A DNA stretch of 64,000 nt from a virus: the IMG/VR virus record IMGVR_UViG_3300030419_007131, positions 101,066 through 165,065 of that record. One strand, written 5' to 3'. Position numbers and translations under genes: made by a program. Each line of letters begins with the position of its first letter. Within the stretch, counting starts at the first letter, position 1. This document shows positions 29,056 through 63,968 of the stretch, piece by piece. The notes under the pieces were generated by a model. That model was not told the DNA's origin. It searched no databases and worked only from the letters and a program-made list of their open reading frames with translations.

Positions 29056-29367
29056 TGGTGGAGGTGGCGGGGCTCGAACCCGCGTCCAAAGCAGTTACTA
29101 CTTCAAGTCATTCACAAGTTTAGTCAGTTTTTCTAAACAGACAAAATAGTCAATTTATTTCGATCCGCTGTATTGACAAAAGCGTACTCACTTGTTATGC
29201 TCTTCTTGAACACCTGGCGAAGAGCAACCAGGGATTAAGCAGCTAAGGCTAAATCGTAATCTGCGTCATTGGCAGTTAAGTGTTCCGGAAAAAGATTAAC
29301 GTGATAATTCCAGCTTGCACGACTTGCACTATCCATCTTCCCTACTCTGTCGATACCATTCACCCCC
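29056..29367 (-). ncRNA. ssrA: tmRNA, 312 nt, one-piece; tag ANDADYDLALAA*
   Basis: 5' GGGGGUG pairs with 3' CACCUCC-A-CCA and contains the G3.U alanine wobble; D-like UGGUAUCGAC; T-arm GCGGG-UUCGAGC-CCCGC; resume context UUAACU-GCC; tag ORF 29273-29235 ends in LALAA. Confidence 0.97.
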
Positions 29368-46469: not shown

Positions 46470-48404
46470 ATGAGTACCACAGATAAATTTTTAGAAAATA
46501 TTAAGCGTCACCAAGAAAGCAAAGAAGACACTCGATTTTCAGGTGTTTTAAAAGATTATTTGCTTCTTTTAGAAAATAATAAAGATATTGCCTCTTTGGC
46601 CCACAAGCGATTATATAGTCGCATCATAGAAGAGGGGATGGTCACCCTTGATGAAACTGACGATCGATGCAATAAGCTTTTTGACGGAGAACCGGTAAAA
46701 GTTTACAACTATTTCAAAAGCCAATTCTTTGGTATGGAGCGGGCCCTAGAAAAGGTTATGCGTTTTCTTCATTCTGCCTCTATGAAAGGCGAGGAAAGCC
46801 GCCAAGTACTCCTTCTGCTGGGCCCAGTGGGCGCTGGTAAGTCCGCATTGGTCGAACACATAAAACACGCCCTAGAGATGTGCGAGCCGGCTTATAGTCT
46901 GGAGGGCTGCCCGATCCGCGAGGAGCCATTGCATCTAATCCCTCGTTCTTTGAGAGCAGACTTTGCAGAAGAATACGGCATCTCTATTGAGGGCGATTTA
47001 TGTCCCGTTTGCCGTCATCGCCTTTTAAATGAATACGATAGTGATTTTACCCAATTTCCCATTACCCAAACATCATTTTCGATTCGTGGGCGCAAGGGAG
47101 TCGGCGTGGTTCCACCAATGGATCCCAATACGCAAGACTCTAGCCTCTTGATCGGCTCCGAGGATATCTCTAAGCTTGATCTTTATCCAGAAGACGATCC
47201 CCGGGTCCTCAGCCTCAATGGCGCCTTCAATGTAGGCAATCGCGGCATTGTAGAATTTGTTGAGGTTTTCAAAAATGAAATCGAATTTCTTCACACTATG
47301 ATTACTGCCACCCAGGAGAAGAATGTACCCTCTCCAGGAAAGCAAGCAATGATTTATTTTGATGGAGTCATTCTCGCTCACTGCAACGAGGCAGAATGGA
47401 ACAAGTTTAAGGCTGAGCACACTAACGAAGCTATTCTAGATCGTATTGTTCGTGTTAACGTACCCTACTGCTTAGAGTATGAACAGGAGGTAAAGATTTA
47501 CGAAAAACTCATAGGTCGATCTGACTACAAATGTCACATCGCCCCTCATACTCTAGAGGTGGCGGCCATGTTTGCTGTTCTTTCACGTTTAAAGAATTCC
47601 AATAAAGCCGACCCGCTCACCAAGATGAAAATCTACAATGGAGAGGAAATCGTCGAAAAGGGTCTTATCAAAAAGATCGATATTAAAGATCTCCGCGAAG
47701 AGGTTGAAGACGAGGGCATGACAGGCATCTCGACGCGCTTTATTATGAAGGCCATCGATGCAGCATTAGCTGATTCAACTAAGAGTATGATCACTCCTAT
47801 CTCAATTCGTGATTCGTTGATTAAGCAGGTTAAAGAACAAATCGTAAATCCAGACGAACGCGCACATTGCCTTCAGTTTCTCCAGAAGACACTTCATGAA
47901 GAATACCTGTCTATTTTAGAAAAAGAAATTACAAAAGCATTTGTCACAGCTTATGAAGAACAGGCTGAGTCCTTGTTCAACAACTACCTGGACCATGCAG
48001 AAGCCTATGTTAATAATACAAAGGTGAAGGACCGAGTGACCAATGAAGATATGGAGCCAGATGAAAAGTTCCTGCAATCGATTGAAGAACAGATAGGAAT
48101 CAAGGGAAGCTCCAAGAATAACTTCCGGGCTGATATTACTTCTTACATGTTTGCCAAGTTACGACGTAAGGAGGTCATTGACTGGCGCTCCTACGGCCCA
48201 TTAAGAGAAGCAATCGAAACAAAGCTTGTGGCATCGGTTCGAGACATCTCAAGAATCGTCACTAAAAGCAAGAGCCGCGATGTGAAACAGCAAAAGAAGT
48301 TTAACAGTATGGTACAAACTCTAATAGACGATTATGGTTATAATGAGGATTCCGCTGAAGAAGTAATTAAGTTTGCTTCGAATAACCTATGGCGCGACTC
48401 ATAA
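46470..48404 (+). CDS. prkA: PrkA/YeaG AAA+ protein
   Basis: LLLGPVGAGKS, CPIREEP, DPR, NRGIVEFVEVFK, NEAEW, VPYCL, APHTL, GISTRF. Confidence 0.95.
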   Translation: MSTTDKFLENIKRHQESKEDTRFSGVLKDYLLLLENNKDIASLAHKRLYSRIIEEGMVTLDETDDRCNKLFDGEPVKVYNYFKSQFFGMERALEKVMRFLHSASMKGEESRQVLLLLGPVGAGKSALVEHIKHALEMCEPAYSLEGCPIREEPLHLIPRSLRADFAEEYGISIEGDLCPVCRHRLLNEYDSDFTQFPITQTSFSIRGRKGVGVVPPMDPNTQDSSLLIGSEDISKLDLYPEDDPRVLSLNGAFNVGNRGIVEFVEVFKNEIEFLHTMITATQEKNVPSPGKQAMIYFDGVILAHCNEAEWNKFKAEHTNEAILDRIVRVNVPYCLEYEQEVKIYEKLIGRSDYKCHIAPHTLEVAAMFAVLSRLKNSNKADPLTKMKIYNGEEIVEKGLIKKIDIKDLREEVEDEGMTGISTRFIMKAIDAALADSTKSMITPISIRDSLIKQVKEQIVNPDERAHCLQFLQKTLHEEYLSILEKEITKAFVTAYEEQAESLFNNYLDHAEAYVNNTKVKDRVTNEDMEPDEKFLQSIEEQIGIKGSSKNNFRADITSYMFAKLRRKEVIDWRSYGPLREAIETKLVASVRDISRIVTKSKSRDVKQQKKFNSMVQTLIDDYGYNEDSAEEVIKFASNNLWRDS

Positions 48405-48626
48405 ACTCCCACTTTTGTTGAGGGCGCCAGAAAGAGGAGAACTTAGGTTCTCCTCTTTTTTTGTAGTAGGGATAAGGCCGTCTAGTTTGCACCATTGATA
48501 GGTTTGAACAGGGTGAGTAAACAACACTCGAACCCATGGGTTACTTTTGTTTAAATCATCAAATATTTCGACAACAATGCCCATTTGTCCATATCGTGTG
48601 GATTTAACTAAGTCACCAAGTTTCAT
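48399..48626 (-). CDS. small SH3/KOW-like protein (MKLGDLV family)
   Basis: MKLGDLVK...MGIVVEI...VRVLF. Confidence 0.65.
   Translation of the reverse strand: MKLGDLVKSTRYGQMGIVVEIFDDLNKSNPWVRVLFTHPVQTYQWCKLDGLIPTTKKEENLSSPLSGALNKSGSL
48431..48462 (+). terminator. rho-independent terminator of the prkA operon
   Basis: AAAGAGGAGAAC-TTAG-GTTCTCCTCTTT followed by TTTT. Confidence 0.85.
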
Positions 48627-51545: not shown

Positions 51546-52337
51546 CTAAACCGCTTTCGCCCATTCGACAGGCCGGGACAACACCTTGAAGCGCATGATC
51601 TCGCGACAGTCATCTGCATAGTGATTGGTAAAGGGCATTTCCCATTCGTGGATGTTACTCGTGTTGGCAGTCCAGTCTACACTCACCTTACCAAACTGAT
51701 CGACTTTCGTTACAATCCCCAGGACACTTCCCGTGTAATCAGTCGTTACCTTTCTAAGTTTCAATAGCTCGACTGTGACCAAATCTCCTGGCAAGATTTC
51801 TGCAACGATTTTTTGCAACTTTTTCTGAGAAGATTTCTTCTGTGGTTTTCTCTGAGGATTTCTCTGAGGATTTCTCGCTGCCTTTTTGACAGTGCTCGCT
51901 GTGATTTTTTTCTGTGGCTTTTTCTTCTTTGTTGTCGCTGCCTTTTTCTTGCCTGCCCATGCGGTCCAACACGCATTGGCGCAAACCACGTTGCCGCTCT
52001 TTGCTGTAAACTTCTTCGCCTTGCAGTGCTTGCAATTCTTTACAAACTTTTCTGCTGCTTCCTGTGCTTTGATTGTCTTGACAAGTCCGGTGTTGGTCGT
52101 GAAGATTTCTGTGGTTATCTCGCGCCAACTCTTCTGACGATTTACATAGCAGAGTTTTACTCCCACCTTGCCAACGATTTTTCCTGTCTTGCTGTCAATG
52201 CCGGAATCCACAACCACGCGCACAAACTTTGCGCTGGGATGCTTGCGGCTATAAATGATGCTTGTGCCCTTTGCGTTCTTCTTGTGGGGGAAGAAGCCTT
52301 CGGCTTTGAGGATTGCTTTTCGCTGTACGACTGTCAT
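51546..52337 (-). CDS. Lys-rich protein with C4 Zn ribbon and C-terminal SH3-like GDLV domain
   Basis: CKHC...CANAC; RNPQ repeats (12-bp unit at 51847-51876); PGDLV...LGIVT...VDW. Confidence 0.65.
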   Translation of the reverse strand: MTVVQRKAILKAEGFFPHKKNAKGTSIIYSRKHPSAKFVRVVVDSGIDSKTGKIVGKVGVKLCYVNRQKSWREITTEIFTTNTGLVKTIKAQEAAEKFVKNCKHCKAKKFTAKSGNVVCANACWTAWAGKKKAATTKKKKPQKKITASTVKKAARNPQRNPQRKPQKKSSQKKLQKIVAEILPGDLVTVELLKLRKVTTDYTGSVLGIVTKVDQFGKVSVDWTANTSNIHEWEMPFTNHYADDCREIMRFKVLSRPVEWAKAV

Positions 52338-52555
52338 TTTATTTCTCCTGTTGAAAGTAGCTCAACGTCTGTTACTTTTTCCCAACCTGCGCCGATGCCG
52401 TAATCCTTCGGGAAGGCAGTCCAATGAACAAAAATTTCCCGCGATTCGCCGCGCAAGCGGGCTCCAACTGTCTGGGTGCGAGATTGTGTGATGATGCCGC
52501 AAAGACCGGGATAATTGGTCTGATCGCGCCATTGAACGAAATCACCGACTTTCAT
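52334..52555 (-). CDS. small SH3/KOW-like protein (MKVGDFV)
   Basis: family motif; ATGA overlaps at both ends. Confidence 0.65.
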   Translation of the reverse strand: MKVGDFVQWRDQTNYPGLCGIITQSRTQTVGARLRGESREIFVHWTAFPKDYGIGAGWEKVTDVELLSTGEIK

Positions 52556-52713
52556 CTTATTGCCTTCCTGAGATTGCAAAGTGGTTCCCAAGACTTTGTG
52601 GTGTCGGTGTATTGAACAAAAGCGAACTCGGCCTTATGGTCAATTTCCACAACAACGCCAATCTTGCGATGGAAATAAAAGCCATGCACCAAATCGCCAA
52701 TTTGAATGTTCAT
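52552..52713 (-). CDS. small SH3/KOW-like protein (53 aa, not in the track)
   Basis: MNIQIGDLVHGFYFHRKIGVVVEID...; ATGA overlaps at both ends. Confidence 0.65.
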   Translation of the reverse strand: MNIQIGDLVHGFYFHRKIGVVVEIDHKAEFAFVQYTDTTKSWEPLCNLRKAIR

Positions 52714-53719: not shown

Positions 53720-53748
53720 AATATAGCACGCTCGCATGCTGCTGTCAA
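53720..53748 (-). promoter_or_regulatory. sigma70 early promoter
   Basis: TTGACA-17-TATATT, extended TG. Confidence 0.8.
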
Positions 53749-53756
53749 GCAAAAAA

Positions 53757-54380
53757 TTACCGCGAATCTGCGCTTTCGCGCTTTGTGATCTCCGCGACCT
53801 TCAACATTGCCTTGTTGCGGAGCTGCTCGAAATCATTGCTGTAGTAAGAGCGCGCATTCTCGGGAGTCTTCATCGTCCCAATTCTGAGAGCAAGGTCAAG
53901 CGTGCAATTAGGGTGCGAAACAAAGCGCTCCAAAGTGTAGGTGCGCGACAGCTCATCTTCACCTAAATCGGCATAAATCTCTTCAAGCAGTTTGCCGGGG
54001 GTGCGACTATTTTGCTTTTTGGATGACCACCAATAGTTGCCGCCGAAGAATGCCTGCATCATGCGCCAGTGCGAACGACTGTTGTTCTTGAAATACTTGC
54101 GGTAGACTTCCGTGTATTCCTTCTTCTTCAACTTGATGGTACCGTGCGCCAGCATCGTTGCCTTGAAAACGTAACCACGATGCTCCCAGAGTTCCTTTGC
54201 GGCATCTGGTGTAAGATTAGGATTCGCAGCCAAATACTCTTTGCCGAGACGGTACCAATGCTTTGAAATCGCTAGCTGCGTTTCAGCATCCGTAAAACGA
54301 TTCTTTGCGAGTCCGACGACTTCGCTGTTCTCCATGTTTTTGATGTTGTTCGCATAAGGCGAAGTGTAAACTGTAGGCAT
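53757..54380 (-). CDS. helical-repeat (LRV-like) hypothetical protein
   Basis: LAANPNLTP / VSHPNCTL. Confidence 0.55.
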   Translation of the reverse strand: MPTVYTSPYANNIKNMENSEVVGLAKNRFTDAETQLAISKHWYRLGKEYLAANPNLTPDAAKELWEHRGYVFKATMLAHGTIKLKKKEYTEVYRKYFKNNSRSHWRMMQAFFGGNYWWSSKKQNSRTPGKLLEEIYADLGEDELSRTYTLERFVSHPNCTLDLALRIGTMKTPENARSYYSNDFEQLRNKAMLKVAEITKRESADSR

Positions 54381-54381
54381 T

Positions 54382-54615
54382 CTATTTCTCCTCGCTCGGC
54401 ATACTAAACGGGTCCACCGATGCGCTTGTTTGGTTGTTGGTTTGTGTTTCTTGTGCTGTCATAATCTTTTGCCAGCACCATTCGGCTGAACCGGCTTCCT
54501 GCTGCGCTTCCACGTTTGTTGGGTGACGCAGAAAGTCCATTTCCTGTTGGTCCCGATAGTTATCAAGAGCTATCAGGATGGTGGTCACTTCCTCGTCGGT
54601 TAGTTCAATCTTCAT
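54382..54615 (-). CDS. hypothetical protein
   Basis: 77 aa. Confidence 0.55.
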   Translation of the reverse strand: MKIELTDEEVTTILIALDNYRDQQEMDFLRHPTNVEAQQEAGSAEWCWQKIMTAQETQTNNQTSASVDPFSMPSEEK

Positions 54616-54895
54616 TGGGAATAAACTCCGAATTCTTGAAAACTGCCGGGTGCATTATGTGGTCCGCGATTCCGCGAGCCTTCCCGACATGACACGAAGT
54701 GGTCATGGATTGAAACGAGCCGCCGGGGGATGTGAAGTCCCCCACAATCGTAACTCCAGACCGCGAGCGATGCCCAATCTTCAGCTTGTATGAAAACAGG
54801 CTTGTTCCGTCAGTGCACAGTGCTCCGGTGTGGGAAGCGGCGTTTTCGCCATCCTTCCACTTTTGAAGCACCTGTTCATTTCTTAGTCTACTCAT
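54605..54895 (-). CDS. hypothetical protein
   Basis: TDG..LFSY..KIG...S.TTS.HV pattern; start MSRLRN. Confidence 0.6.
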   Translation of the reverse strand: MSRLRNEQVLQKWKDGENAASHTGALCTDGTSLFSYKLKIGHRSRSGVTIVGDFTSPGGSFQSMTTSCHVGKARGIADHIMHPAVFKNSEFIPNED

Positions 54896-55011
54896 CAGTT
54901 TCTTCTTCCTCATCAAAAAGGGGAATATCGTAGTCTTCGTCAAATCCATAACGAAGGGAATGGCAATTGGTCCAAGGGTCCATTACTAAATCTTTCTAGT
55001 TATTGGTTGTT

Positions 55012-56304
55012 CTATTTTTCAGTGGGAACGACAACCATTCGTTCCGGCTTCGGATTGAAGTAGGGACGGTTGCCGTGGTACTCATCGGTAATCCACATGC
55101 GCTGGACTCGGCACGCAACCGGCTTCGGTGCTTCCATGTCGGTGCAGATGATAAGACCATCGAACCCGCCGGTTTCATTGACAAACTTCGTCGGAGCATC
55201 AAAGCAGGTTCCACCGTACATGGTGCGCTCGGTCTTGCGACTTTGACCTTTCTTCCAAACCCAATTCTTCTCAGGGTCAACGCGAGTGTCAAACGGAACC
55301 ACTGTGAACTCTGCAATCTTTGCCAGAGTATTCAACTCCGCGAAGAATGCGGTCAGCATAGCCTCGGAGACAGAGCCGGATTGGTCGATTGCAACCGCAA
55401 TCTTTGCTTGTCGAGTTGCCTTCTTGCCGGGATGCTGGTAAGGATAGCGCTTGTTGATCTTGCGAACCGTGCTGCGCTTGTTGGCCTTCTGGCTCTGCTT
55501 CACAAAGTAGCGAAGCACCTTGCGCCAGTCAACCTTCGTTGAGATAGACGCGATGATTTCCTTGCGGCAGTCAGCCGGAACACTTCCCCAACCTCGGCTG
55601 GAAGAGTTTGCCTCTTCAACAGCGTCCTTGATGAACTCCTTGACTCGCTCCTCGGCAATCTGCTTTGTCTGCTCGTCCATTTCGTCCCAGCCGGAGTGGT
55701 CATCGAAAGAGTCCATTCCGTCCAGGGGGTTTCCGTTGCCGTTGCCCTGTCCTTGACCTTGACCTTCGCCATCACCTTGACCTTCGCCATTACCTTCGCC
55801 CTCGGGCGGGTCCTTCTGCATCTTGCGAAGTTCGCGAAGATAGTGCTCGGCAGTCTTGTGGGGCTCAAGGTGTTCAAACGGAGCCTTCCCAGGGAAGCAA
55901 GCACCCTCGGGAAGGTTCGGCAGGTTGCCGTTGATTGCAAGGTCCATCGCAATGTTGTGAATCTTGCGCTCGCTGGGTGCCATGTCGCGGAACGACAGAA
56001 AGCGGCCACCAGTAACATGCTGAAACACGATGTGATAGAATTCGTGCTTGAGAATGTCCTTGCGACACTCATCAGTCATGTTCGCAAAGAATTTCGGATT
56101 GTAGAGCATCTGCAACTTGCCCTCTTCGGTCACAGTCACACCAGCAGTCGGAATCGCGTTGCTTGCACGCTTATCCATCCGGCGCGAAAGCGCAGCGAAG
56201 AAAGGTTCGTCCATCAGCAGACGGTGAACATGGACATTTAGGTCGAAAGCAGACACATCCACTTCCTCGGTTTCGGCTACTTCGTTGTTAGCTGGCTCGG
56301 TCAT
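55012..56304 (-). CDS. DUF2201-like metallopeptidase + VWA protein
   Basis: PTAGV, HEFYH...H, NIAMDLAIN, G-rich linker, DHSGW, DQSGS MIDAS, GGT, TD. Confidence 0.9.
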   Translation of the reverse strand: MTEPANNEVAETEEVDVSAFDLNVHVHRLLMDEPFFAALSRRMDKRASNAIPTAGVTVTEEGKLQMLYNPKFFANMTDECRKDILKHEFYHIVFQHVTGGRFLSFRDMAPSERKIHNIAMDLAINGNLPNLPEGACFPGKAPFEHLEPHKTAEHYLRELRKMQKDPPEGEGNGEGQGDGEGQGQGQGNGNGNPLDGMDSFDDHSGWDEMDEQTKQIAEERVKEFIKDAVEEANSSSRGWGSVPADCRKEIIASISTKVDWRKVLRYFVKQSQKANKRSTVRKINKRYPYQHPGKKATRQAKIAVAIDQSGSVSEAMLTAFFAELNTLAKIAEFTVVPFDTRVDPEKNWVWKKGQSRKTERTMYGGTCFDAPTKFVNETGGFDGLIICTDMEAPKPVACRVQRMWITDEYHGNRPYFNPKPERMVVVPTEK

Positions 56305-56329
56305 TGAGCGTTCCTCCATTGTTAACTAT

Positions 56330-56358
56330 AGTATAGCAGAAAAGTGGTGGCCTGTCAA
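56330..56358 (-). promoter_or_regulatory. sigma70 early promoter
   Basis: TTGACA-17-TATACT, extended TG. Confidence 0.8.
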
Positions 56359-56398
56359 GCGCGGATTGGACAAGTTCACTTGACAGGCCGCCCACTAA

Positions 56399-57460
56399 TC
56401 AGCATTTGTCGCCAGTAAGGATTTCAACAAGGTAGTTGCCGACTGCTCGGCCTTTCTTGTCCTTTGTGGAATGGAAAGCAATTGCGTTGTCCTGATTCGC
56501 CTGACCAATCACGGTCCAGAGCTTCATGGCAGGCTCGGACGGCAAAAACATGAAGTATGCCGCGAGGTTTTGCAGTTCGCCCTCGTTCAGAGCATTCGCA
56601 AATCGCTCACTTGCTGCCATCTTGTCAATGAGAGCGCAGTGCTGGTTCAGGTCAACATCGGGAGTCTTTCCCTTGTCCAAAACATCGGAAATGGTGATAA
56701 CCTTGCTGTAGTTGGCAACGAAGTCGTTGAAGGACACCGCAGCCTCGAATCCGAGGTAAGCCGAAGCCAACGCAAACACAGCCGGGTTAGACTGTCCAGC
56801 TTCCAGAAGGCACGCAGCCGAAACAGTGTCGGAGAAGCGTGCCCAGGAACGACGCGAAGGATAAACCTTGTTCGGCTCCGGGTCGTCGTTGTGCTCAAGG
56901 TGCTCGGTGTTGTTCCGAATGAAGTCGGTAACGAGTGGCTCGCAGTTATCGGCAGCCCACGCAATCCAGTCATCAATTGAAGGTTCAACATCGAACACGG
57001 TGTAACGGTCCAGTTCAGCCGGGTCCATTTCGCCCACCTGATAGGAAGCCGCACCCGCGTGGGTTCCACCATTCACCGCAGCGAAAATCAGGGTGTCGGG
57101 GTGAAGCGCGTGACCTGCCAGCTTGCGCGAGTCGCACAACTCAAAAATGCCCTGTCGTACTTCCAGGGTTGCACGGTCAACCTCATCGAGGAAGAGGACG
57201 ACGCCATTATCGCACGCAGTGGCGAACCAGTCTGGAGGACAAAAGGAAGTCACCCCTTCGTCCACAGTCGGCAGACCCAAAAGGTCGCCTTCCGTCATCT
57301 GGCTAGCCCGTCGTTCGACGATGGGCAGTCCCAGGGCTTCCGCGTACTGGTAAACCACAGAAGACTTACCAATGCCGTGGCGACCACGAAGCAGGACAGG
57401 GTGATTCGCACTTGTAACGTGCGGGAGGACGAGGAGAAGATTCTTGAAATCAATTGCCAT
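56399..57460 (-). CDS. MoxR-like AAA+ ATPase
   Basis: GRHGIGKS, DLLGLP, LFLDEVDRA, AAVN, MDPAELDR, PSRRSW. Confidence 0.9.
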   Translation of the reverse strand: MAIDFKNLLLVLPHVTSANHPVLLRGRHGIGKSSVVYQYAEALGLPIVERRASQMTEGDLLGLPTVDEGVTSFCPPDWFATACDNGVVLFLDEVDRATLEVRQGIFELCDSRKLAGHALHPDTLIFAAVNGGTHAGAASYQVGEMDPAELDRYTVFDVEPSIDDWIAWAADNCEPLVTDFIRNNTEHLEHNDDPEPNKVYPSRRSWARFSDTVSAACLLEAGQSNPAVFALASAYLGFEAAVSFNDFVANYSKVITISDVLDKGKTPDVDLNQHCALIDKMAASERFANALNEGELQNLAAYFMFLPSEPAMKLWTVIGQANQDNAIAFHSTKDKKGRAVGNYLVEILTGDKC

Positions 57461-57506
57461 TTTAGTTCCTTGTTAGTGGGGCCTCTCAACCCCGTCCATT
57501 ATCTAT

Positions 57507-57535
57507 ATAGTACCATACCTGACCGCTGAAGTCAA
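57507..57535 (-). promoter_or_regulatory. sigma70 early promoter
   Basis: TTGACT-17-TACTAT, extended TG. Confidence 0.75.
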
Positions 57536-57558
57536 GCAAAATAATCATCACTTATATA

Positions 57559-58419
57559 CTAACTATCATTGTCCGGAAGTTCGGGATCTTTCATTTCAGA
57601 AAGTTCAATCTCGCCATTTACGTATTGCTGAAGCTGCTTCCTTTGCGAGTCATCGAAGGTTCTGAAATCCCTCTCCGTCTGCTCCTGTGGGGCAGCAAAG
57701 TGAACCTTTGTGGCCTTCTTCACTCCCTTCGGGGACACGAAAGCGTCTCCACTGAAATCACTCTGACCTCTTGAAACCACTTCCCAATCCACATTGGTCA
57801 AGCGTTCCTGCCGGTCCAACTTCTGGTTATACCAGCCAGCCATTCCGGCACGCGGGACAAGACCGGGAATACAAGGAAGAGTAATACCGACTGCTTTGTA
57901 GTAAGGCAGCTCAGCGAGGCTCGCCCCAATGCGCTCAAAGGACGCAATAGTTGTTGAGTGTAGCCAAAGATTAGTTCCAGGGATGCCGTGATAGTGGGTA
58001 AGACCTTCACCAAACACACTTTGCATTACCAGCCCAACGGGAGGAACATAACCTTCATTGTCCGGATAGTGGTAGTGATCGCGATCATGATACGACGCAT
58101 CCTTGCAACGCACCAAAGCGCCAACTCCCAGACCAACATCACTTGCCCACTTGACAAGCGCGGTGCGCCACAAAACAAGGTCATCATGAAAGAGCGACTT
58201 GTGCGCCTTCATTGTATCGCAACCGGCGCGAGTGTGTCCGCTTTCATCACAGTAGCCACAAATCTTTGGCTTTGCCTTGCGGTCAAGGATTCTCTGCCAT
58301 TCGCGACCCCTGTAACTGGTGGGGTCGTCCTCCCACGCTTTTTTCAGTGTGGGGCAACTCGTTTTATTGTGCCCGTTTTCGTAGCAAACACCGCATCGGA
58401 CTGTTCCACTCCAACTCAT
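57559..58419 (-). CDS. protein with two CCHC zinc knuckles
   Basis: CGVCYENGHNKTSC and CGYCDESGHTRAGC. Confidence 0.75.
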   Translation of the reverse strand: MSWSGTVRCGVCYENGHNKTSCPTLKKAWEDDPTSYRGREWQRILDRKAKPKICGYCDESGHTRAGCDTMKAHKSLFHDDLVLWRTALVKWASDVGLGVGALVRCKDASYHDRDHYHYPDNEGYVPPVGLVMQSVFGEGLTHYHGIPGTNLWLHSTTIASFERIGASLAELPYYKAVGITLPCIPGLVPRAGMAGWYNQKLDRQERLTNVDWEVVSRGQSDFSGDAFVSPKGVKKATKVHFAAPQEQTERDFRTFDDSQRKQLQQYVNGEIELSEMKDPELPDNDS

Positions 58420-58464
58420 GTTTTTCTCTCCCGTGTGGGGGTTCTATCTCTAGCTTCTGATTAT

Positions 58465-58493
58465 ATCATAGCACGTTTAGGGTGTGCTGTCAA
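58465..58493 (-). promoter_or_regulatory. sigma70 early promoter
   Basis: TTGACA-17-TATGAT, extended TG. Confidence 0.8.
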
Positions 58494-58660
58494 CCACTAT
58501 CTGTCATTTGATAAAAGGGGGGCAACCGCTTTTCAGGTGTTGCTACCTAGACAACTTTCAACATATTTCGCGACTTGGCTCCGTTCAATACTTCCGCGTG
58601 CACGCTGGGATTCATGGTTGTCATTGAATCCATTTATTACGTTTTATTCACCCCTTGTTG

Positions 58661-59269
58661 TTACTTTCGCTTTTTGGCCTTCTTCAGCCATCGTTCTTCC
58701 GTCCAAATCGGAGCGGCTGCCCCAATGGGCAAAACCTGGATTGGCTTGGCCCCTTTCGCATGGGAACTCACATGCTCGGCGTTGCCGTATTTTAGGATGA
58801 TGCAGAGCTGTCCTTTGTGGGTGCGGGCACCTGTACGAAAAACAGCAGTCCCTCCAACTGGAAACTTGCATTCCCCCTGAATGTTTCGAATTACACCAGC
58901 CGCGTACTTGTTGAGTACGAGCTTGTTATATTCCTTCTGAGAGGGAGGACCGGCGCACCGGACTCCCTCGGTCGTCAGATACTTCCAAACGATGTTGCCG
59001 TAGTATCCCGTCTTGCGGTAATACTGGAGGGCGATGTTGAACTTCTCTTCCTTTTCTTCGTTCCAGTCTTGTGTCCACGTTGCACGGGACTTCAAAGCCT
59101 CATCAGACCATCGGCCTTCGACCTGTTGCAATACCTCTTCTTGACGCGGCGATAAAGTGCCACGCTTCTTGAGTTGTTCTTCAAGAGATTGCATGAACCC
59201 AAAATCCCAGTCACTCTCATCACCGGCAATTGAGATTCGCCCCATCACGTTATTGATTCGTTCAAGCAT
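58661..59269 (-). CDS. hypothetical protein
   Basis: WDFGFMQSL..Q...LSPRQ; C-terminal SH3-like segment. Confidence 0.6.
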   Translation of the reverse strand: MLERINNVMGRISIAGDESDWDFGFMQSLEEQLKKRGTLSPRQEEVLQQVEGRWSDEALKSRATWTQDWNEEKEEKFNIALQYYRKTGYYGNIVWKYLTTEGVRCAGPPSQKEYNKLVLNKYAAGVIRNIQGECKFPVGGTAVFRTGARTHKGQLCIILKYGNAEHVSSHAKGAKPIQVLPIGAAAPIWTEERWLKKAKKRK

Positions 59270-59296
59270 GGTGTTCCCTTCGTCCACTGTCTCTAT

Positions 59297-59325
59297 ATAC
59301 TACCATAGTCCAGCCCGCTTGTCAA
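59297..59325 (-). promoter_or_regulatory. sigma70 early promoter
   Basis: TTGACA-17-TAGTAT, extended TG. Confidence 0.75.
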
Positions 59326-59678
59326 CCCTCAATCAAGATTTTAAGGTTTGTGATATGCTTGCACTTTCCACGAAACTGGAATCCAGAGCACTGACACTTC
59401 CACTTGTCACCCTGCTTTGTCACTGTGTAGACCTTGCCTTTCGAGCCCTTGACCTCAATGGTCTGGATGGGTTCTTCGGAGTAATTGGAATCCCAATACT
59501 TTCGGGCTTCAGTGCCCCAGCAAAAGAAGCCTTCAATGTCTTCTCGCGTAGTCTCAGGGGGCACTTCAATATGAACCCCGCCGGAGCCTGCGTAAGTCTT
59601 GCCGGAAATAGGCGCAACCCAAACTGCGGGAGGCCACGGCACGATGTAGCGATTGTCAGGCGTCGTTTTGGGAGGCAT
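59322..59678 (-). CDS. SWIM zinc-finger protein
   Basis: GSKGKVYTV...WKCQCSGFQFRGKCKH. Confidence 0.8.
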   Translation of the reverse strand: MPPKTTPDNRYIVPWPPAVWVAPISGKTYAGSGGVHIEVPPETTREDIEGFFCWGTEARKYWDSNYSEEPIQTIEVKGSKGKVYTVTKQGDKWKCQCSGFQFRGKCKHITNLKILIEG

Positions 59679-59874
59679 ACTCGGCAGCCAATCGGTCAAA
59701 GGTTTCGCGCTGAAAAGCCTCAATGCTGAAATACTCCTCATTGAGAGTATCCCAATAAACACCAGCCGAGGCTAGCATCTCTTCTACTTCTTCGCCTAGA
59801 CTGCCTGAAGCAATCCTGTCTTCTGTTAGACGCTCCAAAGCTGCCTTTTCCAAACTTAGAATTCCGTCAATCAT
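59656..59874 (-). CDS. acidic hypothetical protein
   Basis: start MIDGIL; GGAGG SD. Confidence 0.55.
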   Translation of the reverse strand: MIDGILSLEKAALERLTEDRIASGSLGEEVEEMLASAGVYWDTLNEEYFSIEAFQRETFDRLAAEYASQNDA

Positions 59875-60203
59875 TAGTTGTCCTCCGGTAGGGTCCTGTT
59901 TGACTCTCCCTCTACTATAACACCCAAGAGGGGCGTTGTCAAGCATGAATCTTCAAAGTCCACATCGAGCTGGATGAAATATTCATCTATCGCCTGCTGC
60001 GCCGACTGCACAGTGGGTTCTGTATTCCAAGGGAGAGGTTCAATCTCAGGAATACAGATCGGTTTAGTGAGATTGTAGACTTCCACTTCGCGGCCTCCCA
60101 ACCAAATACATAAATAAATGTCGCGCTCTACTGTAACTAGTTCTGCGCCATCGACAAGGTTCAAAAGATCAATAGCATTCCAAGAGCAATTTTTAATCGT
60201 CAT
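59874..60203 (-). CDS. hypothetical protein
   Basis: 109 aa. Confidence 0.55.
   Translation of the reverse strand: MTIKNCSWNAIDLLNLVDGAELVTVERDIYLCIWLGGREVEVYNLTKPICIPEIEPLPWNTEPTVQSAQQAIDEYFIQLDVDFEDSCLTTPLLGVIVEGESNRTLPEDN
59914..59942 (-). promoter_or_regulatory. sigma70 early promoter inside a CDS
   Basis: TTGACA-17-TATAGT, extended TG. Confidence 0.7.
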
Positions 60204-60950
60204 GTTCTTCTATCTCCACCATTTCTAAATCCGCGAGTTGAAAGTTTTCCTTCTCGCTAAACCAATACCGCTCCTGGTTCGTGACATTCAACATTCGTAC
60301 AAGACAACGACGTTCATATACCTCTTTCACCTCAAACAGGTGGCGGGAGTATTTCTCCATCCAGTCTATCGTCGGGTTGGGAATCAGTTCCACAATGTCA
60401 CCCGGCTTCATCAGCCAGTTCCAGATTGGCTTTGCCGATAATCCACACCCATTCGGGAACGCTTCCAATCATCTTCAGTTCCACCCCAGTTTCCGTAGGA
60501 AAATCAAGGACTTGAAAGGTCTTGTCCCGATAGTTCTCCATCCAATCCACGGTGGGTTTTTCAATCAACTTTACAATATCACCGACCTTCACTTACCAAC
60601 TCCAAATCTCTCGCTCTGTATGAGCCATGATCTCTACCTTTATTTTCGTGCCACCATTCTATAACTTTGAATTCATGAGTGCCGGGGATTTCCCGCACGA
60701 TTATTCCAAGCCAGCCGCCCCAATCGTCATGATGGGTGGAGGTCCGATACTTTACCAAGTCACCGACTTTCATTTACCAATACCAATTCCTCGGGCATGT
60801 GATTGACTGTCTCCACTGCGCCGTCGTCGGAGCATACCCACTGCACCGCTTTATGTTCTCCGTCAGTAGGCTCGCCAATTATAAGTCCCAGCCAAGCATT
60901 AAAATTTTCGTTCTCGTGCCGAGGGCGGCATCTTACCAAGTCACCGATTT

Positions 60951-61040
60951 TCATTCTTCATCCTTCCGTGGGGCACCCAAAAACCAAACCAACCCATAAA
61001 ACACAACTGTGACGGCCCAAGTTATGAGGTTATGCTTCAT
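60951..61040 (-). CDS. 29-aa TM peptide within the array (not in the track)
   Basis: MKHNLITWAVTVVFYGLVWFLGAPRKDEE*; ATGA overlaps at both ends. Confidence 0.55.
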   Translation of the reverse strand: MKHNLITWAVTVVFYGLVWFLGAPRKDEE

Positions 61041-61929
61041 TCTACCACCACAATCTCGTTCGTGCGAATGGATTCTTCCCATTCTTGTTGGTCGTGCAAA
61101 GAGTGGTGCGGCCCCTTACACCAATCCACAACCACTAGGTATTCGTACTCGTCATTGTCAAAGAAATTGATGCCTTCAAACTGCACTTCTTTCACAATCC
61201 CAACATCATGCTGAGGGCTGTCACGGTCTAGCGTGAAGTTATCATACCAGCGAAGCAACTGTCCTACTTTGGGAATCATTGCATAATCTCCATCTGCCCT
61301 TGATACAAGGATTCCTCAATCATTTCAGGGCTGTGGTGGGTGGTGTTTTTGGTTATCGCCCACGCAATATGGTAATAACCACTCCAATCCTCGCCGGGGA
61401 GTTGTGTCACAATCCCCAACTCATCAATGTCGGCACCCTCGGTATCATCCCCGTGCCAGCGAACCAACATTCCAATTCTCAAATCAGCGTGAGTTTGCAC
61501 GAGAGATTACCTCCAGAGTGTCGCGCCGGGTGTAAACATCCCAGCTATCTCCAGCTTCCAAATCAGTATCTAAAAAGCGTACCCAAACATGGATGCCTTC
61601 AGTTCCTACAATATATCCCGCCGCATGTGTGGGCAGACTTAGGGACCTTACAAGGTCCCCCACTCTCGGTGCTTCACTAGCCACGCTGAATCCTTATCTC
61701 GCCTGCTTCCAAGTAGTCGTCAAGTTCATGATAGTAATAGTGGAGAGGCATCCGGTGGGTGTCTTTACCCATAAATTGAATCAGCAGAGCTTGTTCGTCG
61801 TGAGGATCAACGTCGGTGCCCACAACGTAGCCCGCACAATCGTTCGCGCCACCTTCCCCAATAAAAACAACAAGGTCGCCCCGTCTCAAATCGTCTATCT
61901 GATTCACGCCTACCCTCCATTGTGCTTAC

Positions 61930-61958
61930 AGCATACCACACAAAGCAGGCTAAGTCAA
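61930..61958 (-). promoter_or_regulatory. sigma70 early promoter
   Basis: TTGACT-17-TATGCT, extended TG. Confidence 0.75.
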
Positions 61959-63456
61959 GGGCTATTTCTCAAACCATAGATTCACGCCGCCGAGACTACT
62001 TCAAAATACTTGGAGGGATACCAGTCATTATCAACTCGGATGTTGAACTGTGCTTCGGGGTCGCGCTCGTGGCGATACATTCCCGTCACGAGAACAGCCT
62101 GCCTCTTTGCCGACCACTCTCTATTGTACCTCCAGGTATAGCCGTGCTTCACTCTTACAAGGTCACCGACTTTCACTTACAATCTCCAAGTCTTTCGGTA
62201 TTACCCAACTCACATCCTGACCACCATCATCCAACCACTGAACACGCACTTCCTTGTAAGGAGGATCCCCCTCGAACATCGGTGACTTGAAGATCTCTAC
62301 TATTATTCCCGCAGCGCGTTTTCCTTCGCCCCACCGCAATGCCACCAAATCACCGATTTTCACCGTACCACCTCCAGTTCTTCGGCTACCCACTGTACTT
62401 CGTTCGTGGAGTCAAACCAGTAAACCTTCCAGCGTTTAATTCGCTTGCCACTCTTAGTACTGTATTCCCCTAAGCCAGTGATAAGACCCATACGCCTCCA
62501 CGGGGGCGGAGACTCGTGCAAGTCCTCGCGCCCTTTCCACGTTACCAAGTCACCGACCTTCACTTACAACCTCCAAAAACTCGGGCAACTCGGTACTCTT
62601 CTCGGGATGGCTCGCACGACCACTCGGCAGCGCGTGCTGGTCCAACCACAGAACATCCACCGCCATGCCGTTGAAACCAACTATTATTCCCATGCAGTTG
62701 TGCAAGCCGGTTAGGGATTTGTCGTATTTTACCAAGTCACCGATTTGCATCTTCTGGCTCCACGCTGGAGATTACTTTTACGCATGCGGCCCTTTGCCAG
62801 CTTCCGCCCGGCTTTTGTTTCAGGCTTCCAAGACCTTTGCCGTCCCAGATTACCTTGACTTCGTGCCGCTCCCCTAAGTCACGAATGTCTCTCGTGTCCA
62901 CAATAATCCCCTGAAGATTGTGGTAGGAGCCACCGACCCACTTTACTAAATCACCGATTTTCACTGATTACCTCCAACCCCGATTCTTCAAAAAGAATAG
63001 GATGAGTGACGCCCACGATTTTCACCCACTTATCGTCAGCCCACTCCACAATCCAGAGTGAGCCATCAATCTCATACCTCAGCAGGTCGCCCCGTTTCAT
63101 AATTTCTACTTACAACTTTCCAATGTTTCGGTGCAGCCATTTCTGGGCGGTCTGAATCAAAAAACTGAATCTGTATTCTATCGAACACAAGAGCTTCCAG
63201 GCTCACCACCATCGCAATAGGCGACGGACATTCGCGTGTCCCAAAGTGCTTTAGTGTAATCAAGTCGCCTACTTGAAAGTCCATCATGGCTCCAGCGAAA
63301 GGATTTCAAAGTTTTCCAACTGATACCATGCGTTCACATGGTCGCCCGCGAACTGAATCCACTCCCCGCGCTGGTCGCACTTGTATCCTGTAACAATTTT
63401 CATTATCTGAGAGCAGTCGCGCACGAGTGCTCCAATCATTACCATTCCGCGAGCCT

Positions 63457-63525
63457 TCATCGTCGGTCGTCCCAGTGATTCCAAATGTAAAGTAGACACG
63501 CAGTCCCGATCAAAAATTCTAGCAT
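63457..63525 (-). CDS. 22-aa hydrophobic peptide (not in the track)
   Basis: AGGAG SD; MLEFLIGTACLLYIWNHWDDRR*; ATGA overlap with the next gene. Confidence 0.45.
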   Translation of the reverse strand: MLEFLIGTACLLYIWNHWDDRR

Positions 63526-63536
63526 CTTATATTCTC

Positions 63537-63917
63537 CTAGTAGCAAATGTTAGTGGTAGCGTAAATGTCCCAGAAGCCGCATCCCCGAGTTTCGATGTCG
63601 GTGTCCTCCTCGCCAACTCTCACAAACTTGATGTGTTCGCTGGAGGCTTGCGGCTTGCCATCGACTTCAAACTCATATTCATCGGACTCGGCCTCGATAA
63701 TGAACCTCTCAAGTGTTTGGATACACTCGTAGGAGTCGTACCACTTGATACCGTCCCAGCGAATAAGCCACGATTTCTCGTTTTCGTAGTTGCGCTCAAA
63801 GTAATCGGCGTCGTTGAATACCAAGGCTTGCGCTGCGGCATTTTGAGAACACGCGAGCGTCAAAAAGGGTGTTAGATGCTTACTGATTGCTAGAACAACT
63901 TGAGAGCGATAGCCCAT
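63537..63917 (-). CDS. phage hypothetical protein (MGYRSQV...KWY...FVRVGEE..D family)
   Basis: own promoter and GGAGG SD. Confidence 0.7.
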   Translation of the reverse strand: MGYRSQVVLAISKHLTPFLTLACSQNAAAQALVFNDADYFERNYENEKSWLIRWDGIKWYDSYECIQTLERFIIEAESDEYEFEVDGKPQASSEHIKFVRVGEEDTDIETRGCGFWDIYATTNICY

Positions 63918-63939
63918 TACATACCTCCATTGTGCTTAC

Positions 63940-63968
63940 AGCATACCACGGGAAGCGGCTGCTGTCAA
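63940..63968 (-). promoter_or_regulatory. sigma70 early promoter
   Basis: TTGACA-17-TATGCT, extended TG. Confidence 0.8.

What the first reader, a model, noticed from the sequence alone, without database searches (positions are those of the whole stretch)
60193..63525. Self-coupling cassette array of 16 hypervariable SH3/KOW-like micro-genes
Seen: 49-80 aa ORFs with conserved ends (MK[VI]GDLV ... LE[VL][VI]S) and divergent middles. The junction, e.g. ttGGAGGTtgtaaGTGaaggtcggTGA at 62550-62576, does three jobs: the L-E-V codons are the SD of the next gene, and the same bases read VSEGR* in one frame and MKVGD in the other. Seven junctions overlap by exactly 14 nt (60398, 60579, 60760, 62163, 62550, 62737, 62951). 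TCGGTGA is invariant at eight starts despite synonymous freedom. Four ORFs are exactly 195 nt, and stop-to-stop spacing is 181, 181, 181, 197, 190, 187 and 214 bp. Neighbours 60193 and 60398 are close paralogs. Tiny TM peptides are slotted in by ATGA overlaps. Inference: a repeat/variable-unit array in which any cassette can be inserted, lost or swapped at the junction and remain translated, giving an expandable early-expressed library of binders (anti-defence, RNA or ribosome binding). The proteins themselves are probably common phage hypotheticals; the junction architecture is the new observation.
Basis: partly seen in the sequence, partly recalled or inferred. Interest (0 to 1): 0.82.

Follow-up and report, generated by a model that had tools for sequence, protein, structure and literature searches.

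The report
Shufflable array of phage mini-barrel genes
An uncultured marine T4-like phage chains 16 tiny barrel-protein genes through one shared 14-base start/stop overlap, and related strains gain, lose and reorder whole genes at that overlap, so it acts as a natural gene-cassette system whose protein function is still unknown.

Summary
Window 60193-63499 (minus strand) holds 16 paralogous genes of 49-80 aa plus two tiny membrane peptides. Seven junctions overlap by exactly 14 nt.

Two divergent members fold with good confidence as five-stranded SH3/KOW-like barrels. The family has no Pfam, PHROG, NCBIfam or PADLOC match and no hit in GenBank phages. It gives 527 cluster representatives in metagenomes, and its junction occurs in at least 119 IMG/VR stretches.

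The junction is family-wide. The last-strand codons L-E-V spell the ribosome-binding site GGAGG. The next gene's M-K-[VI]-G-D codons read, one base out of frame, as the upstream tail [SN]-E-x-R-stop.

- **Order and content:** they differ between relatives.
- **Junction conservation:** it exceeds codon bias.
- **Fold:** it is shared.

Near-identical strains differ by precise single-cassette indels, with crossovers inside the conserved junction (TCGGTGA or TTGGTAAA).

Orthologs are under purifying selection (dN/dS 0.05-0.41), so "hypervariable" holds only between paralogs. What the proteins bind is unknown. The closest analogue is PeSL-mediated shuffling in T4-type phages, here with a coding junction. 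This scan's first stage noted the same junction in another genome.

The parts
63940..63968 (-). Sigma70-like promoter P1 (TTGACA-17-TATGCT with TG extended -10). It heads the first transcription unit.
   Evidence: It is followed by the same 16-nt leader with GGAGG as P2.
63537..63917 (-). Conserved 126-aa upstream anchor gene (y). It is not a family member.
   Evidence: No Pfam or PHROG match. Homologues at 29-93% identity precede arrays in 15 viral loci.
63457..63525 (-). 22-aa hydrophobic peptide gene. Its stop overlaps the next start as ATGA.
   Evidence: 80% identical over 15 aa in L006 and L009.
63284..63460 (-). Cassette a (58 aa).
   Evidence: 97% identical in L006 and 79% in L009; dN/dS 0.05-0.11. 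It is the weakest family member (independent HMM E 0.02).
63072..63287 (-). Cassette b (70-71 aa). It overlaps c by 29 nt because c uses GGC GAC and so offers no TGA.
62951..63100 (-). Cassette c (49 aa). Its stop lies in a 14-nt overlap with d.
   Evidence: An identical protein occurs in 23 or more contigs with at least three different neighbour sets.
62737..62964 (-). Cassette d (75 aa). 14-nt overlap with e.
62550..62750 (-). Cassette e (66 aa). 14-nt overlap with f (the junction quoted in the finding).
   Evidence: In L006 an e-type cassette sits between m and o instead.
62360..62563 (-). Cassette f (67 aa). 4-nt GTGA overlap with g.
   Evidence: Its N-terminal third recurs fused to other C-terminal parts (L009 f', P0008).
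62163..62363 (-). Cassette g (66 aa, start corrected to 62363). 14-nt overlap with h.
   Evidence: called as 66 aa in independent assemblies.
61982..62176 (-). Cassette h (64 aa). It is the last gene of unit 1.
61930..61958 (-). Internal sigma70-like promoter P2 (TTGACT-17-TATGCT, TG), in the only intergenic gap of the array.
61677..61907 (-). Cassette i (76 aa).
61484..61684 (-). Cassette j (66 aa).
61276..61500 (-). Cassette k (74 aa).
61037..61279 (-). Cassette l (80 aa).
60951..61040 (-). 29-aa membrane peptide gene with ATGA overlaps at both ends.
   Evidence: 62-90% identical in L006 and L009.
60760..60954 (-). Cassette m (64 aa). 14-nt overlap with n.
   Evidence: The orthologous cassette is precisely absent in strains L148 and L151.
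60579..60773 (-). Cassette n (64 aa). 14-nt overlap with o. This is the member that was modelled.
   Evidence: AF2 pLDDT 90.5, five strands. KOW, NdhS and PsaE matches.
60398..60592 (-). Cassette o (64 aa). 14-nt overlap with p. This is the second member that was modelled.
   Evidence: AF2 pLDDT 84.5, five strands plus a loop helix. KOW, NusG and NdhS matches.
60193..60411 (-). Cassette p (72 aa). It is the last of the array and a paralog of o.
52334..52713 (-). Two further family members outside the array (53 and 73 aa, 4-nt overlap).
48399..48626 (-). Solitary family member (75 aa).

Best explanation
What it is. This is a tandem array of paralogous genes for single-domain SH3/KOW-like beta-barrel mini-proteins. 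It lies in the promoter-dense, presumably early and hyperplastic region of an uncultured 165-kb marine T4-like phage.

The junction. The genes are linked by an inherited, family-wide junction of about 35 nt.
- The codons of the last barrel strand (L-E-V, typically TTG GAG GTx) spell the Shine-Dalgarno core GGAGG, 6 nt upstream of the next start.
- The next gene's first strand (M-K-[VI]-G-D, RTG AAR RTC GGT GAY) supplies the upstream stop through GGTGA.
- The upstream protein's last four residues ([SN]-E-x-R) are therefore only the out-of-frame shadow of the next gene's start. They lie after the last modelled strand.

Shown:
- The anatomy.
- Its conservation in hundreds of viral contigs.
- Nucleotide conservation beyond codon bias.
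- A shared fold.
- Purifying selection.
- Whole cassettes gained, lost and reordered between relatives, with crossovers inside the junction.

Inferred:
- The junction lets each inserted cassette be translated from the preceding cassette's ribosome-binding site, whatever its neighbours.
- It also acts as a short portable homology patch for the phage's general recombination machinery (a RecA/UvsX homologue is encoded).
- Array content therefore turns over rapidly without breaking genes.
- The conserved residues look like hydrophobic core positions while loop lengths vary. I therefore think the proteins are a set of small binders with different host targets, made early in infection. Their targets are unknown.
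For: Anatomy:
-.

Fold:
- Cassette n has pLDDT 90.5 and cassette o 84.5. Both have five strands.
- The best solved match is the Spt5 KOW domain (Z 8.5, rmsd 1.9 A, 58 aligned), followed by NdhS, PsaE and NusG (Foldseek).

Family:
- The profile finds 527 representative clusters at E <= 1e-3, nearly all of 52-84 aa. Of the 143 small best hits, 75 start MKVGD and 66 end x-E-x-[RW].
- HMM hits lie only on the coding strand in 17 loci.
- An HMM built only from distant loci recovers 15 of the 16 window genes at E <= 1.3e-3. Neighbouring non-family genes score E >= 0.19.

Junction prevalence:
- 55 of 83 adjacent pairs overlap by 14 nt in loci chosen by flanking genes.
- 209 of 253 do so in 119 loci chosen by the junction pattern.

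Synonymous conservation:
-. GAG is used for 92 of 112 Glu in the L-E-V motif against 45% genome-wide.

Selection:
- dN/dS is 0.05-0.41 for 24 ortholog pairs, with terminal codons trimmed.

Shuffling:
- Different order and content in L006 and L009.
- L146/L147 versus L152 versus L148/L151 differ by 178-nt and 175-nt deletions with 96.6-100% identical flanks. The crossovers lie inside TCGGTGA and inside TTGGTAAA.
- L164 and L167 carry an extra 69-aa cassette between c and d, flanked by a 34-nt perfect repeat of the junction.
- The window's own order is confirmed by an independent 99.7-kb Tara scaffold at 99.84% identity.

Context:
- Eight of the ten minus-strand extended -10 sigma70-type promoters in the genome lie in the last 11 kb. 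None of the T4-type late motifs tested lies in the array.
- A RecA/UvsX homologue is encoded.
- The gp23-type capsid protein marks a T4-like phage.
Against: - No expression, ribosome or binding data exist. 'Early' rests only on promoter type.
- No conserved mRNA hairpin masks the start sites (z from -1.6 to +2.0). Strict coupling is therefore not required, and independent initiation at each GGAGG is equally possible.
- Crossovers at junctions could reflect selection for intact genes as well as a recombination preference.
- Mosaic joints also occur inside genes, for example f-type N-termini joined to other bodies.
- All comparative data come from short-read metagenome assemblies, not from clonal genomes or long reads.
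- Codon-bias p-values overstate significance, because related loci share ancestry.
- The codon bias persists in starts with no overlapping upstream gene (GGT 31 of 51). The present overlap therefore does not explain all of it.
Confidence: 0.7

Rival explanations
1. Passive by-product. An ancient tandem duplication froze a 14-nt overlap that dual coding now prevents from changing. Cassette turnover is ordinary recombination between any repeated DNA, followed by selection for intact genes. On this view the junction has no role as a coupling or exchange device beyond that.
For: - The upstream tail is just the frame-shifted reading of the next start and follows the last strand.
- Overlaps of 3n+2 nt are a usual class in prokaryotes (general knowledge).
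- There is no conserved RNA structure.
- Intragenic mosaics also exist.
Against: - Bases outside the overlap are also strongly biased (Leu6 TTG 63%, Val7 GTA 57%, Glu GAG 82%).
- Starts without an overlapping partner keep GGT and GTC.
- Unrelated membrane-peptide genes have adopted the same junction (the 43-aa gene in L146).
- Every indel resolved to the base has its crossover in the junction.
Confidence: 0.22
2. The differences in order are assembly chimeras. Assemblers switch between co-occurring strains at the shared junction repeat.
For: - Logan k=31 contigs break at the junctions.
- Several different continuations leave the same junction (loose ends at 62542, 62576, 62942 and 62977).
Against: - Exact shared runs between non-orthologous junctions are only about 18-34 nt, shorter than the final k of the assemblers named in the contig labels (k119, k127, k141).
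- The same variant arrangements recur in independent assemblies from different sources: L148 (ENA) and L151 (Logan); L164 (ENA) and L167 (NCBI); L146, L147 and L006.
Confidence: 0.06
3. The overlaps serve programmed +1 frameshifting, which fuses neighbouring barrels into multi-domain proteins.
For: - The downstream frame is +1 relative to the upstream frame at every 14-nt junction.
- Natural in-frame fusions and multi-repeat proteins exist (P0055, P0066, P0004, P0019).
Against: - There is no known +1 slippery motif or stimulatory structure.
- Each gene has its own start codon with a well-spaced GGAGG.
- The junction carries TAA just before the start, in the downstream frame, in most copies.
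Confidence: 0.02

Closest known systems
PeSL (promoter-early stem-loop) cassettes of T4-type phages (Arbiol et al. 2010, PMC2839356; Comeau et al. 2014, PMC4122927)
   Same: - Short repeated motifs sit between small non-essential genes in hyperplastic regions of T4-like genomes.
- Indels and replacements between close relatives are bounded by the motif.
- Recombination is presumed to be by the phage's general system.
   Different: - PeSLs are non-coding promoter-plus-terminator units.
- Here the repeated motif is coding in two frames and carries a ribosome-binding site, start and stop. It has no promoter or stem-loop.
- The shuffled genes all belong to one protein family.
- Mini-circles were not looked for.
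Integron gene-cassette arrays
   Same: - Promoterless small ORFs stand in a one-directional array read from an upstream promoter.
- Cassettes are gained, lost and reordered at a repeated boundary.
   Different: - No integrase was found in the flanking genes.
- The boundary has no attC-like folded site.
- Crossovers lie in plain sequence homology of 7-34 nt.
Conserved boundary or 'linker' sequences in lambdoid phage mosaics, and the conserved leader of T-even internal-protein genes (recalled from memory: Susskind and Botstein 1978; Clark et al. 2001; Repoila et al. 1994; not read here)
   Same: Short conserved sequences at gene ends act as exchange points between otherwise unrelated modules.
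   Different: Those cases involve single loci or scattered junctions. They are not an array of up to about 20 units with one dual-coding junction.
KOW domains of NusG/Spt5 and the SH3-like subunits NdhS and PsaE
   Same: - The same five-stranded barrel (Z 6.9-8.5).
- An N-terminal G-D-x-V strand followed by a G-x-V strand resembles the KOW motif. Sub-threshold Spt5 hits have E 0.09-0.35.
   Different: - No significant sequence match to any Pfam family.
- The proteins are stand-alone units of 50-80 aa.
- Fold similarity at this level does not give a function.

Membership tests
SH3-like / KOW barrel fold | Five-stranded antiparallel beta-barrel of about 55-65 residues. | tested here: met
   AF2 models of cassettes n and o (pLDDT 90.5 and 84.5) each have five strands. 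Spt5 KOW gives Z 8.5, rmsd 1.9 A and 58 aligned residues.
KOW motif family (Pfam KOW) | A significant match to the KOW sequence profile. | tested here: not met
   No Pfam family reaches its cut-off for any of the 16 genes. The family profile hits Spt5 KOW regions only at E 0.09-0.35.
PeSL-mediated modular shuffling | The repeated unit is a sigma70 promoter plus a stem-loop terminator between ORFs. | tested here: not met
   The array has only two promoters (63968, 61958) and no terminator-like hairpin at the junctions.
PeSL-mediated modular shuffling | Indels and replacements between close relatives are bounded by the repeated motif, in a hyperplastic region of a T4-type genome. | tested here: met
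   Searches show the indels. Searches show gp23-type capsid. One search shows the promoter cluster.
Integron cassette array | An IntI-type tyrosine recombinase and attC/attI sites. | tested here: not met
   The flanking genes y, x, z, SWIM and q give no recombinase family. No conserved folded site lies at the junctions. The rest of the genome was not scanned for an integrase.
Translationally coupled overlapping genes | The downstream start lies inside the upstream ORF, with a Shine-Dalgarno sequence in upstream coding sequence. | tested here: met
   The start lies 11 nt before the upstream stop. GGAG(G) ends 6 nt before the start in most junctions.
Translationally coupled overlapping genes | Downstream translation depends on upstream translation. 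| not testable with these tools
   This needs reporter fusions or ribosome profiling. No masking hairpin is predicted.
Diversity-generating retroelement target | A reverse transcriptase plus a near-identical template and variable repeat pair. | tested here: not met
   DNA similarity between cassettes is limited to 30-49 nt at the junctions. Orthologs evolve under purifying selection. No search for a reverse transcriptase was run.

The most novel reading that the evidence does not exclude
The junction could be the exchange site of an integrase-free, integron-like system. Recombination between two junctions would release a cassette, possibly as a mini-circle as shown for PeSLs. That cassette could re-enter at any junction of a co-infecting relative. 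Marine T4-like phages would then share a community-wide pool of interchangeable KOW-like mini-binders, each aimed at a different host factor or defence protein, for example the partners of NusG-KOW such as S10 or Rho.
Probability: 0.2. Interest if true: 0.85.

Novelty: new variant of a known kind. Interest (0 to 1): 0.68.

Why it matters
- **How phages renew accessory genes.** It gives a concrete answer at base-pair resolution. A dual-coding, self-translating junction lets any member of a gene family be dropped in or out without a dedicated recombinase.
- **A new family.** It defines a large, unannotated family of about 60-aa barrel proteins that is abundant in marine T4-like viromes and absent from the cultured phage records searched here.
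- **A practical design idea.** The junction is a ready-made natural design for modular, evenly translated mini-protein arrays.
- **Candidates for screening.** The variable cassettes are obvious candidates for host-takeover or counter-defence activities.

Tried and rejected
Family and sequence searches that found nothing:
- Pfam, PHROGs, NCBIfam and PADLOC gave no family for any member. Only sub-threshold SH3_1, DUF1918 and similar hits appeared.
- GenBank phages (INPHARED) gave no match for the array DNA, for two family proteins or for the junction. The junction search gave only chance-level hits at E of about 1-10.
- The search for related loci with the family alignment failed, because no stretch was conserved enough.
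- There is no RegB homologue, so GGAG cleavage as in T4 has no support (the control genomes did not ring either).
- No Rfam family lies in the array.

RNA structure:
- There is no stable or shared RNA structure at ten junctions.

Public sequencing runs:
- No RNA holder was listed.
- Logan contigs break at the junctions. The reported joints have sides of only 23-36 nt, so I do not count them as rearrangements.

Apparent variants I discounted:
- The apparent loss of cassette n in L154, L156 and L157 is a gene-calling omission. L154 is 100% identical to the window.
- The extra m-like cassette in L170 sits next to a run of N in a scaffold and was not used.

Weak or rejected readings:
- Synonymous divergence differs between cassettes only weakly (chi-square 29.5, 16 df, p 0.02).
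- I considered and rejected a DGR, a programmed frameshift and a non-coding repeat.
Full report
**Context.** The window is the last 64 kb of a 165,065-bp IMG/VR virus record, linear and about 91% complete. The record encodes a gp23-type capsid protein. The nearest cultured relatives by that protein are only 46-48% identical (Flavobacterium phage immuto, Microcystis phage Mel-JY01). It also encodes a RecA/UvsX homologue. Marine metagenomes from eleven studies hold the stretch or parts of it. Nearly all genes in the window are on the minus strand.

**Observation.** Between 60193 and 63499 the minus strand carries 16 small ORFs of 49-80 aa plus two hydrophobic peptide genes.
- Seven junctions overlap by exactly 14 nt.
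- Eight starts contain TCGGTGA.
- Four genes are 195 nt long.
- The spacings given in the finding are correct.
- The pattern RTGMARRTCGGTGAY occurs 9 times in the window against 0.00 in shuffles.

Two starts needed correction: 62363 instead of 62393, and 63460 instead of 63499. Independent gene calls on identical contigs agree with the corrected lengths. Three more members lie outside the array, at 52552-52713, 52334-52555 and 48399-48626.

**Anatomy of the junction.** The consensus over 55 junctions from loci chosen by flanking genes is TGGAGgTnGTaARTGAARRTCGGTGAyTTgGTaA.
- In the upstream frame it reads L-E-V-V-[SN]-E-x-R-stop.
- One base further on it reads M-K-[VI]-G-D-L-V.
- GGAGG ends 6 nt before the start.
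- The stop TGA is made by the Gly-Asp codons GGT GAY.

The upstream tail is therefore fully determined by the downstream start. ATG gives N and GTG gives S. AAA GTC gives E-S-R, AAG GTC gives E-G-R, and AAA ATC gives E-N-R. In the model of cassette n the last strand ends at residue 61, so the tail is not part of the barrel.

**Are these real genes of one family?**
- The paralogs are very divergent (mean column identity 20%, only Gly4 invariant). They share the pattern of strand 1 GDLV, strand 2 G-[IL]-I-V, a V-x-W strand and a last strand L-E-V-V.
- Cassette n models at pLDDT 90.5 and the dissimilar cassette o at 84.5. Both have five strands, and o has an extra helix in the first loop.
- Both models match KOW domains of Spt5 and NusG, ribosomal KOW proteins, NdhS and PsaE. 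The best match is Z 8.5, rmsd 1.9 A.
- HMM hits fall only on the coding strand in 17 loci.
- A profile built only from distant loci recovers 15 of the 16 genes and separates them from all neighbours.
- Ortholog pairs against two related phages have dN/dS of 0.05-0.41, like the flanking genes at 0.12-0.28.

They are therefore coding genes under purifying selection. They are diverse as paralogs, not hypervariable as alleles.

**Distribution.** No Pfam, PHROG, NCBIfam or PADLOC family matches. No GenBank phage record matches at the sensitivities used.

The profile finds 527 representative clusters among 1.84 billion proteins, none with a name or Pfam domain. Of the 143 small best hits, 75 begin MKVGD and 66 end x-E-x-[RW], which is the shadow of a downstream partner.

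A strict junction pattern hits at least 119 IMG/VR stretches, with up to nine copies in one locus. Many lie on contigs of 160-205 kb. In those loci 209 of 253 adjacent family pairs overlap by 14 nt. In loci chosen without reference to the junction the figure is 55 of 83.

**Is the junction conserved beyond amino acids and codon bias?** Genome usage is GGT 22%, GTC 18%, ATC 32%, AAA 45% and GAG 45%.

| Position | Observed | Genome usage |
|---|---|---|
| Gly4 GGT, 79 overlapped starts | 100% (required for the stop) | 22% |
| Val3 GTC, overlapped starts | 46 of 50 | 18% |
| Ile3 ATC, overlapped starts | 20 of 23 | 32% |
| Lys2 AAA, overlapped starts | 54 of 65 | 45% |
| Asp5 GAT, third base just outside the overlap | 46 of 79 | 59% |
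| Glu GAG in L-E-V | 92 of 112 | 45% |

The Asp result equals genome usage and serves as an internal control. The GAG preference fits selection for GGAGG.

Two things remain unexplained by the overlap alone.
- Starts with no overlapping partner still prefer GGT (31 of 51) and GTC (18 of 28 Val).
- Leu6 TTG (63%) and Val7 GTA (57%) are biased although they lie outside the overlap.

Homogenisation by recombination, or selection for the homology patch itself, would explain both. The p-values are inflated by shared ancestry.

**Order and content in relatives.** The flanking genes (y upstream; x, z, a SWIM protein and q downstream) are conserved in related contigs and anchor the comparison.
- Window: a b c d e f g h | i j k l | m n o p.
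- L006: a b NEW c f d g' .. i j k l .. U V n . m e o p.
- L009: a b. f' e g NEW h NEW i j k. NEW n o p.

blastn blocks between the window and these loci start and stop within about 25 nt of cassette starts. The 3' end of each cassette travels with it into the new junction.

**Base-pair evidence from near-identical strains.** Look-ups by exact protein identity returned independent assemblies.

In the L006 lineage:
- L146 and L147 read U V n s43 m e o p x.
- L152 lacks V.
- L148 (ENA) and L151 (Logan) lack V and m.
- Flanks are 96.6-100% identical, and the missing pieces are 178 and 175 nt.
- The V joint switches parent inside TCGGTGA. The m joint switches inside TTGGTAAA.

In the window's lineage:
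- L164 and L167 carry an extra 69-aa cassette between c and d. It is flanked by a 34-nt perfect repeat of the junction, and they have other cassettes in place of g and h.
- L158 has a-f at 96-100% protein identity and then switches to other cassettes.
- The window's own order is reproduced by a 99.7-kb Tara scaffold at 99.84% identity.

Mosaic joints also occur inside genes. The f-type N-terminus is joined to different bodies in L009 and in P0008. The junction is therefore the main exchange point, but not the only one.

**Expression context.** Two sigma70-like promoters with extended -10 elements and an identical leader head the two halves of the array, at 63968-63940 and 61958-61930. Eight of the ten such minus-strand promoters in the genome lie in the last 11 kb and two lie in the first 6.4 kb. 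None of the T4-type late motifs tested lies in the array. By analogy with T4 this suggests early transcription by host polymerase. That is an inference. No conserved hairpin hides the starts, so coupling, if any, would work through termination and re-initiation or through local ribosome supply.

**Interpretation.** This is a cassette array whose junction keeps every unit translatable and is the place where units are exchanged. The closest described mechanism is PeSL-mediated modular shuffling in T4-type phages (PMC2839356, PMC4122927). PeSLs are non-coding promoter-terminator units, whereas this junction is dual-coding and carries translation signals.

The function of the proteins is open. The conserved positions look like hydrophobic core positions and the loop lengths vary. 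This fits a scaffold presenting different surfaces, but the fold alone gives no target.

The main caveat is that all comparative data come from short-read metagenome assemblies. Recurrence of the same variants in independent assemblies argues against chimeras, but long reads are needed.

This scan's first stage noted the same 14-nt junction in another genome (e1-5772456). I reproduced that architecture here and in relatives.

Noticed in passing
window 29056-29367 (-): The phage encodes a one-piece tmRNA (Rfam RF00023, 128.8 bits) with tag peptide ANDADYDLALAA. It may be a clue to the host.
   Followed up: partly
L146:2378-2509 (+), also in L006, L148 and L151: A 43-aa hydrophobic peptide gene unrelated to the barrel family ends in S-E-N-R and uses the same 14-nt junction. 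The junction is therefore not restricted to family members.
   Followed up: partly
P0055, P0066, P0004, P0019, P0039, P0102, P0125: Some relatives are in-frame fusions of two units (127-132 aa) or long proteins with 4-6 matching stretches (311-1156 aa). The barrel therefore also exists as tandem repeats in one polypeptide.
   Followed up: no
L008:165-410 (P0008); L009:11185-11382 versus L006:5710-5913: These are chimeric cassettes. The first 24-29 residues of the f type are joined to an m-type body (P0008, a single 745-nt contig) or to an unrelated body (L009). This suggests a second crossover point near the G-[IL]-I-V strand.
   Followed up: partly
window 53748-63968 (-) and genome positions 4854 and 6360 (-): Ten minus-strand TTGACW-N14-TGnTAnnnT promoters cluster at the two ends of the linear record. 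This fits one early region split by the arbitrary ends of a circularly permuted genome.
   Followed up: partly
window 61914-61939 and 63924-63949 (-): An identical 26-nt stretch spans the -10 element and a leader ending in GGAGG downstream of both array promoters. It is also present in L006.
   Followed up: no
junctions, e.g. window 62536-62580 (-): Most junctions carry stops in all three frames within about 25 nt: TAA just before the start in the downstream frame, TGA at +12, and TAA at +20 in the third frame. The biased TTG GTA codons that create the last stop lie outside the overlap and are unexplained.
   Followed up: partly
L170:330-600: A scaffold with ten N carries an additional m-like cassette between m and n. 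It could be a real duplication or a scaffolding artefact.
   Followed up: no
window 59322-59762 (-): A 146-aa SWIM zinc-finger protein is conserved just downstream of the arrays in all close relatives, together with three unknown genes (x, z, q).
   Followed up: no
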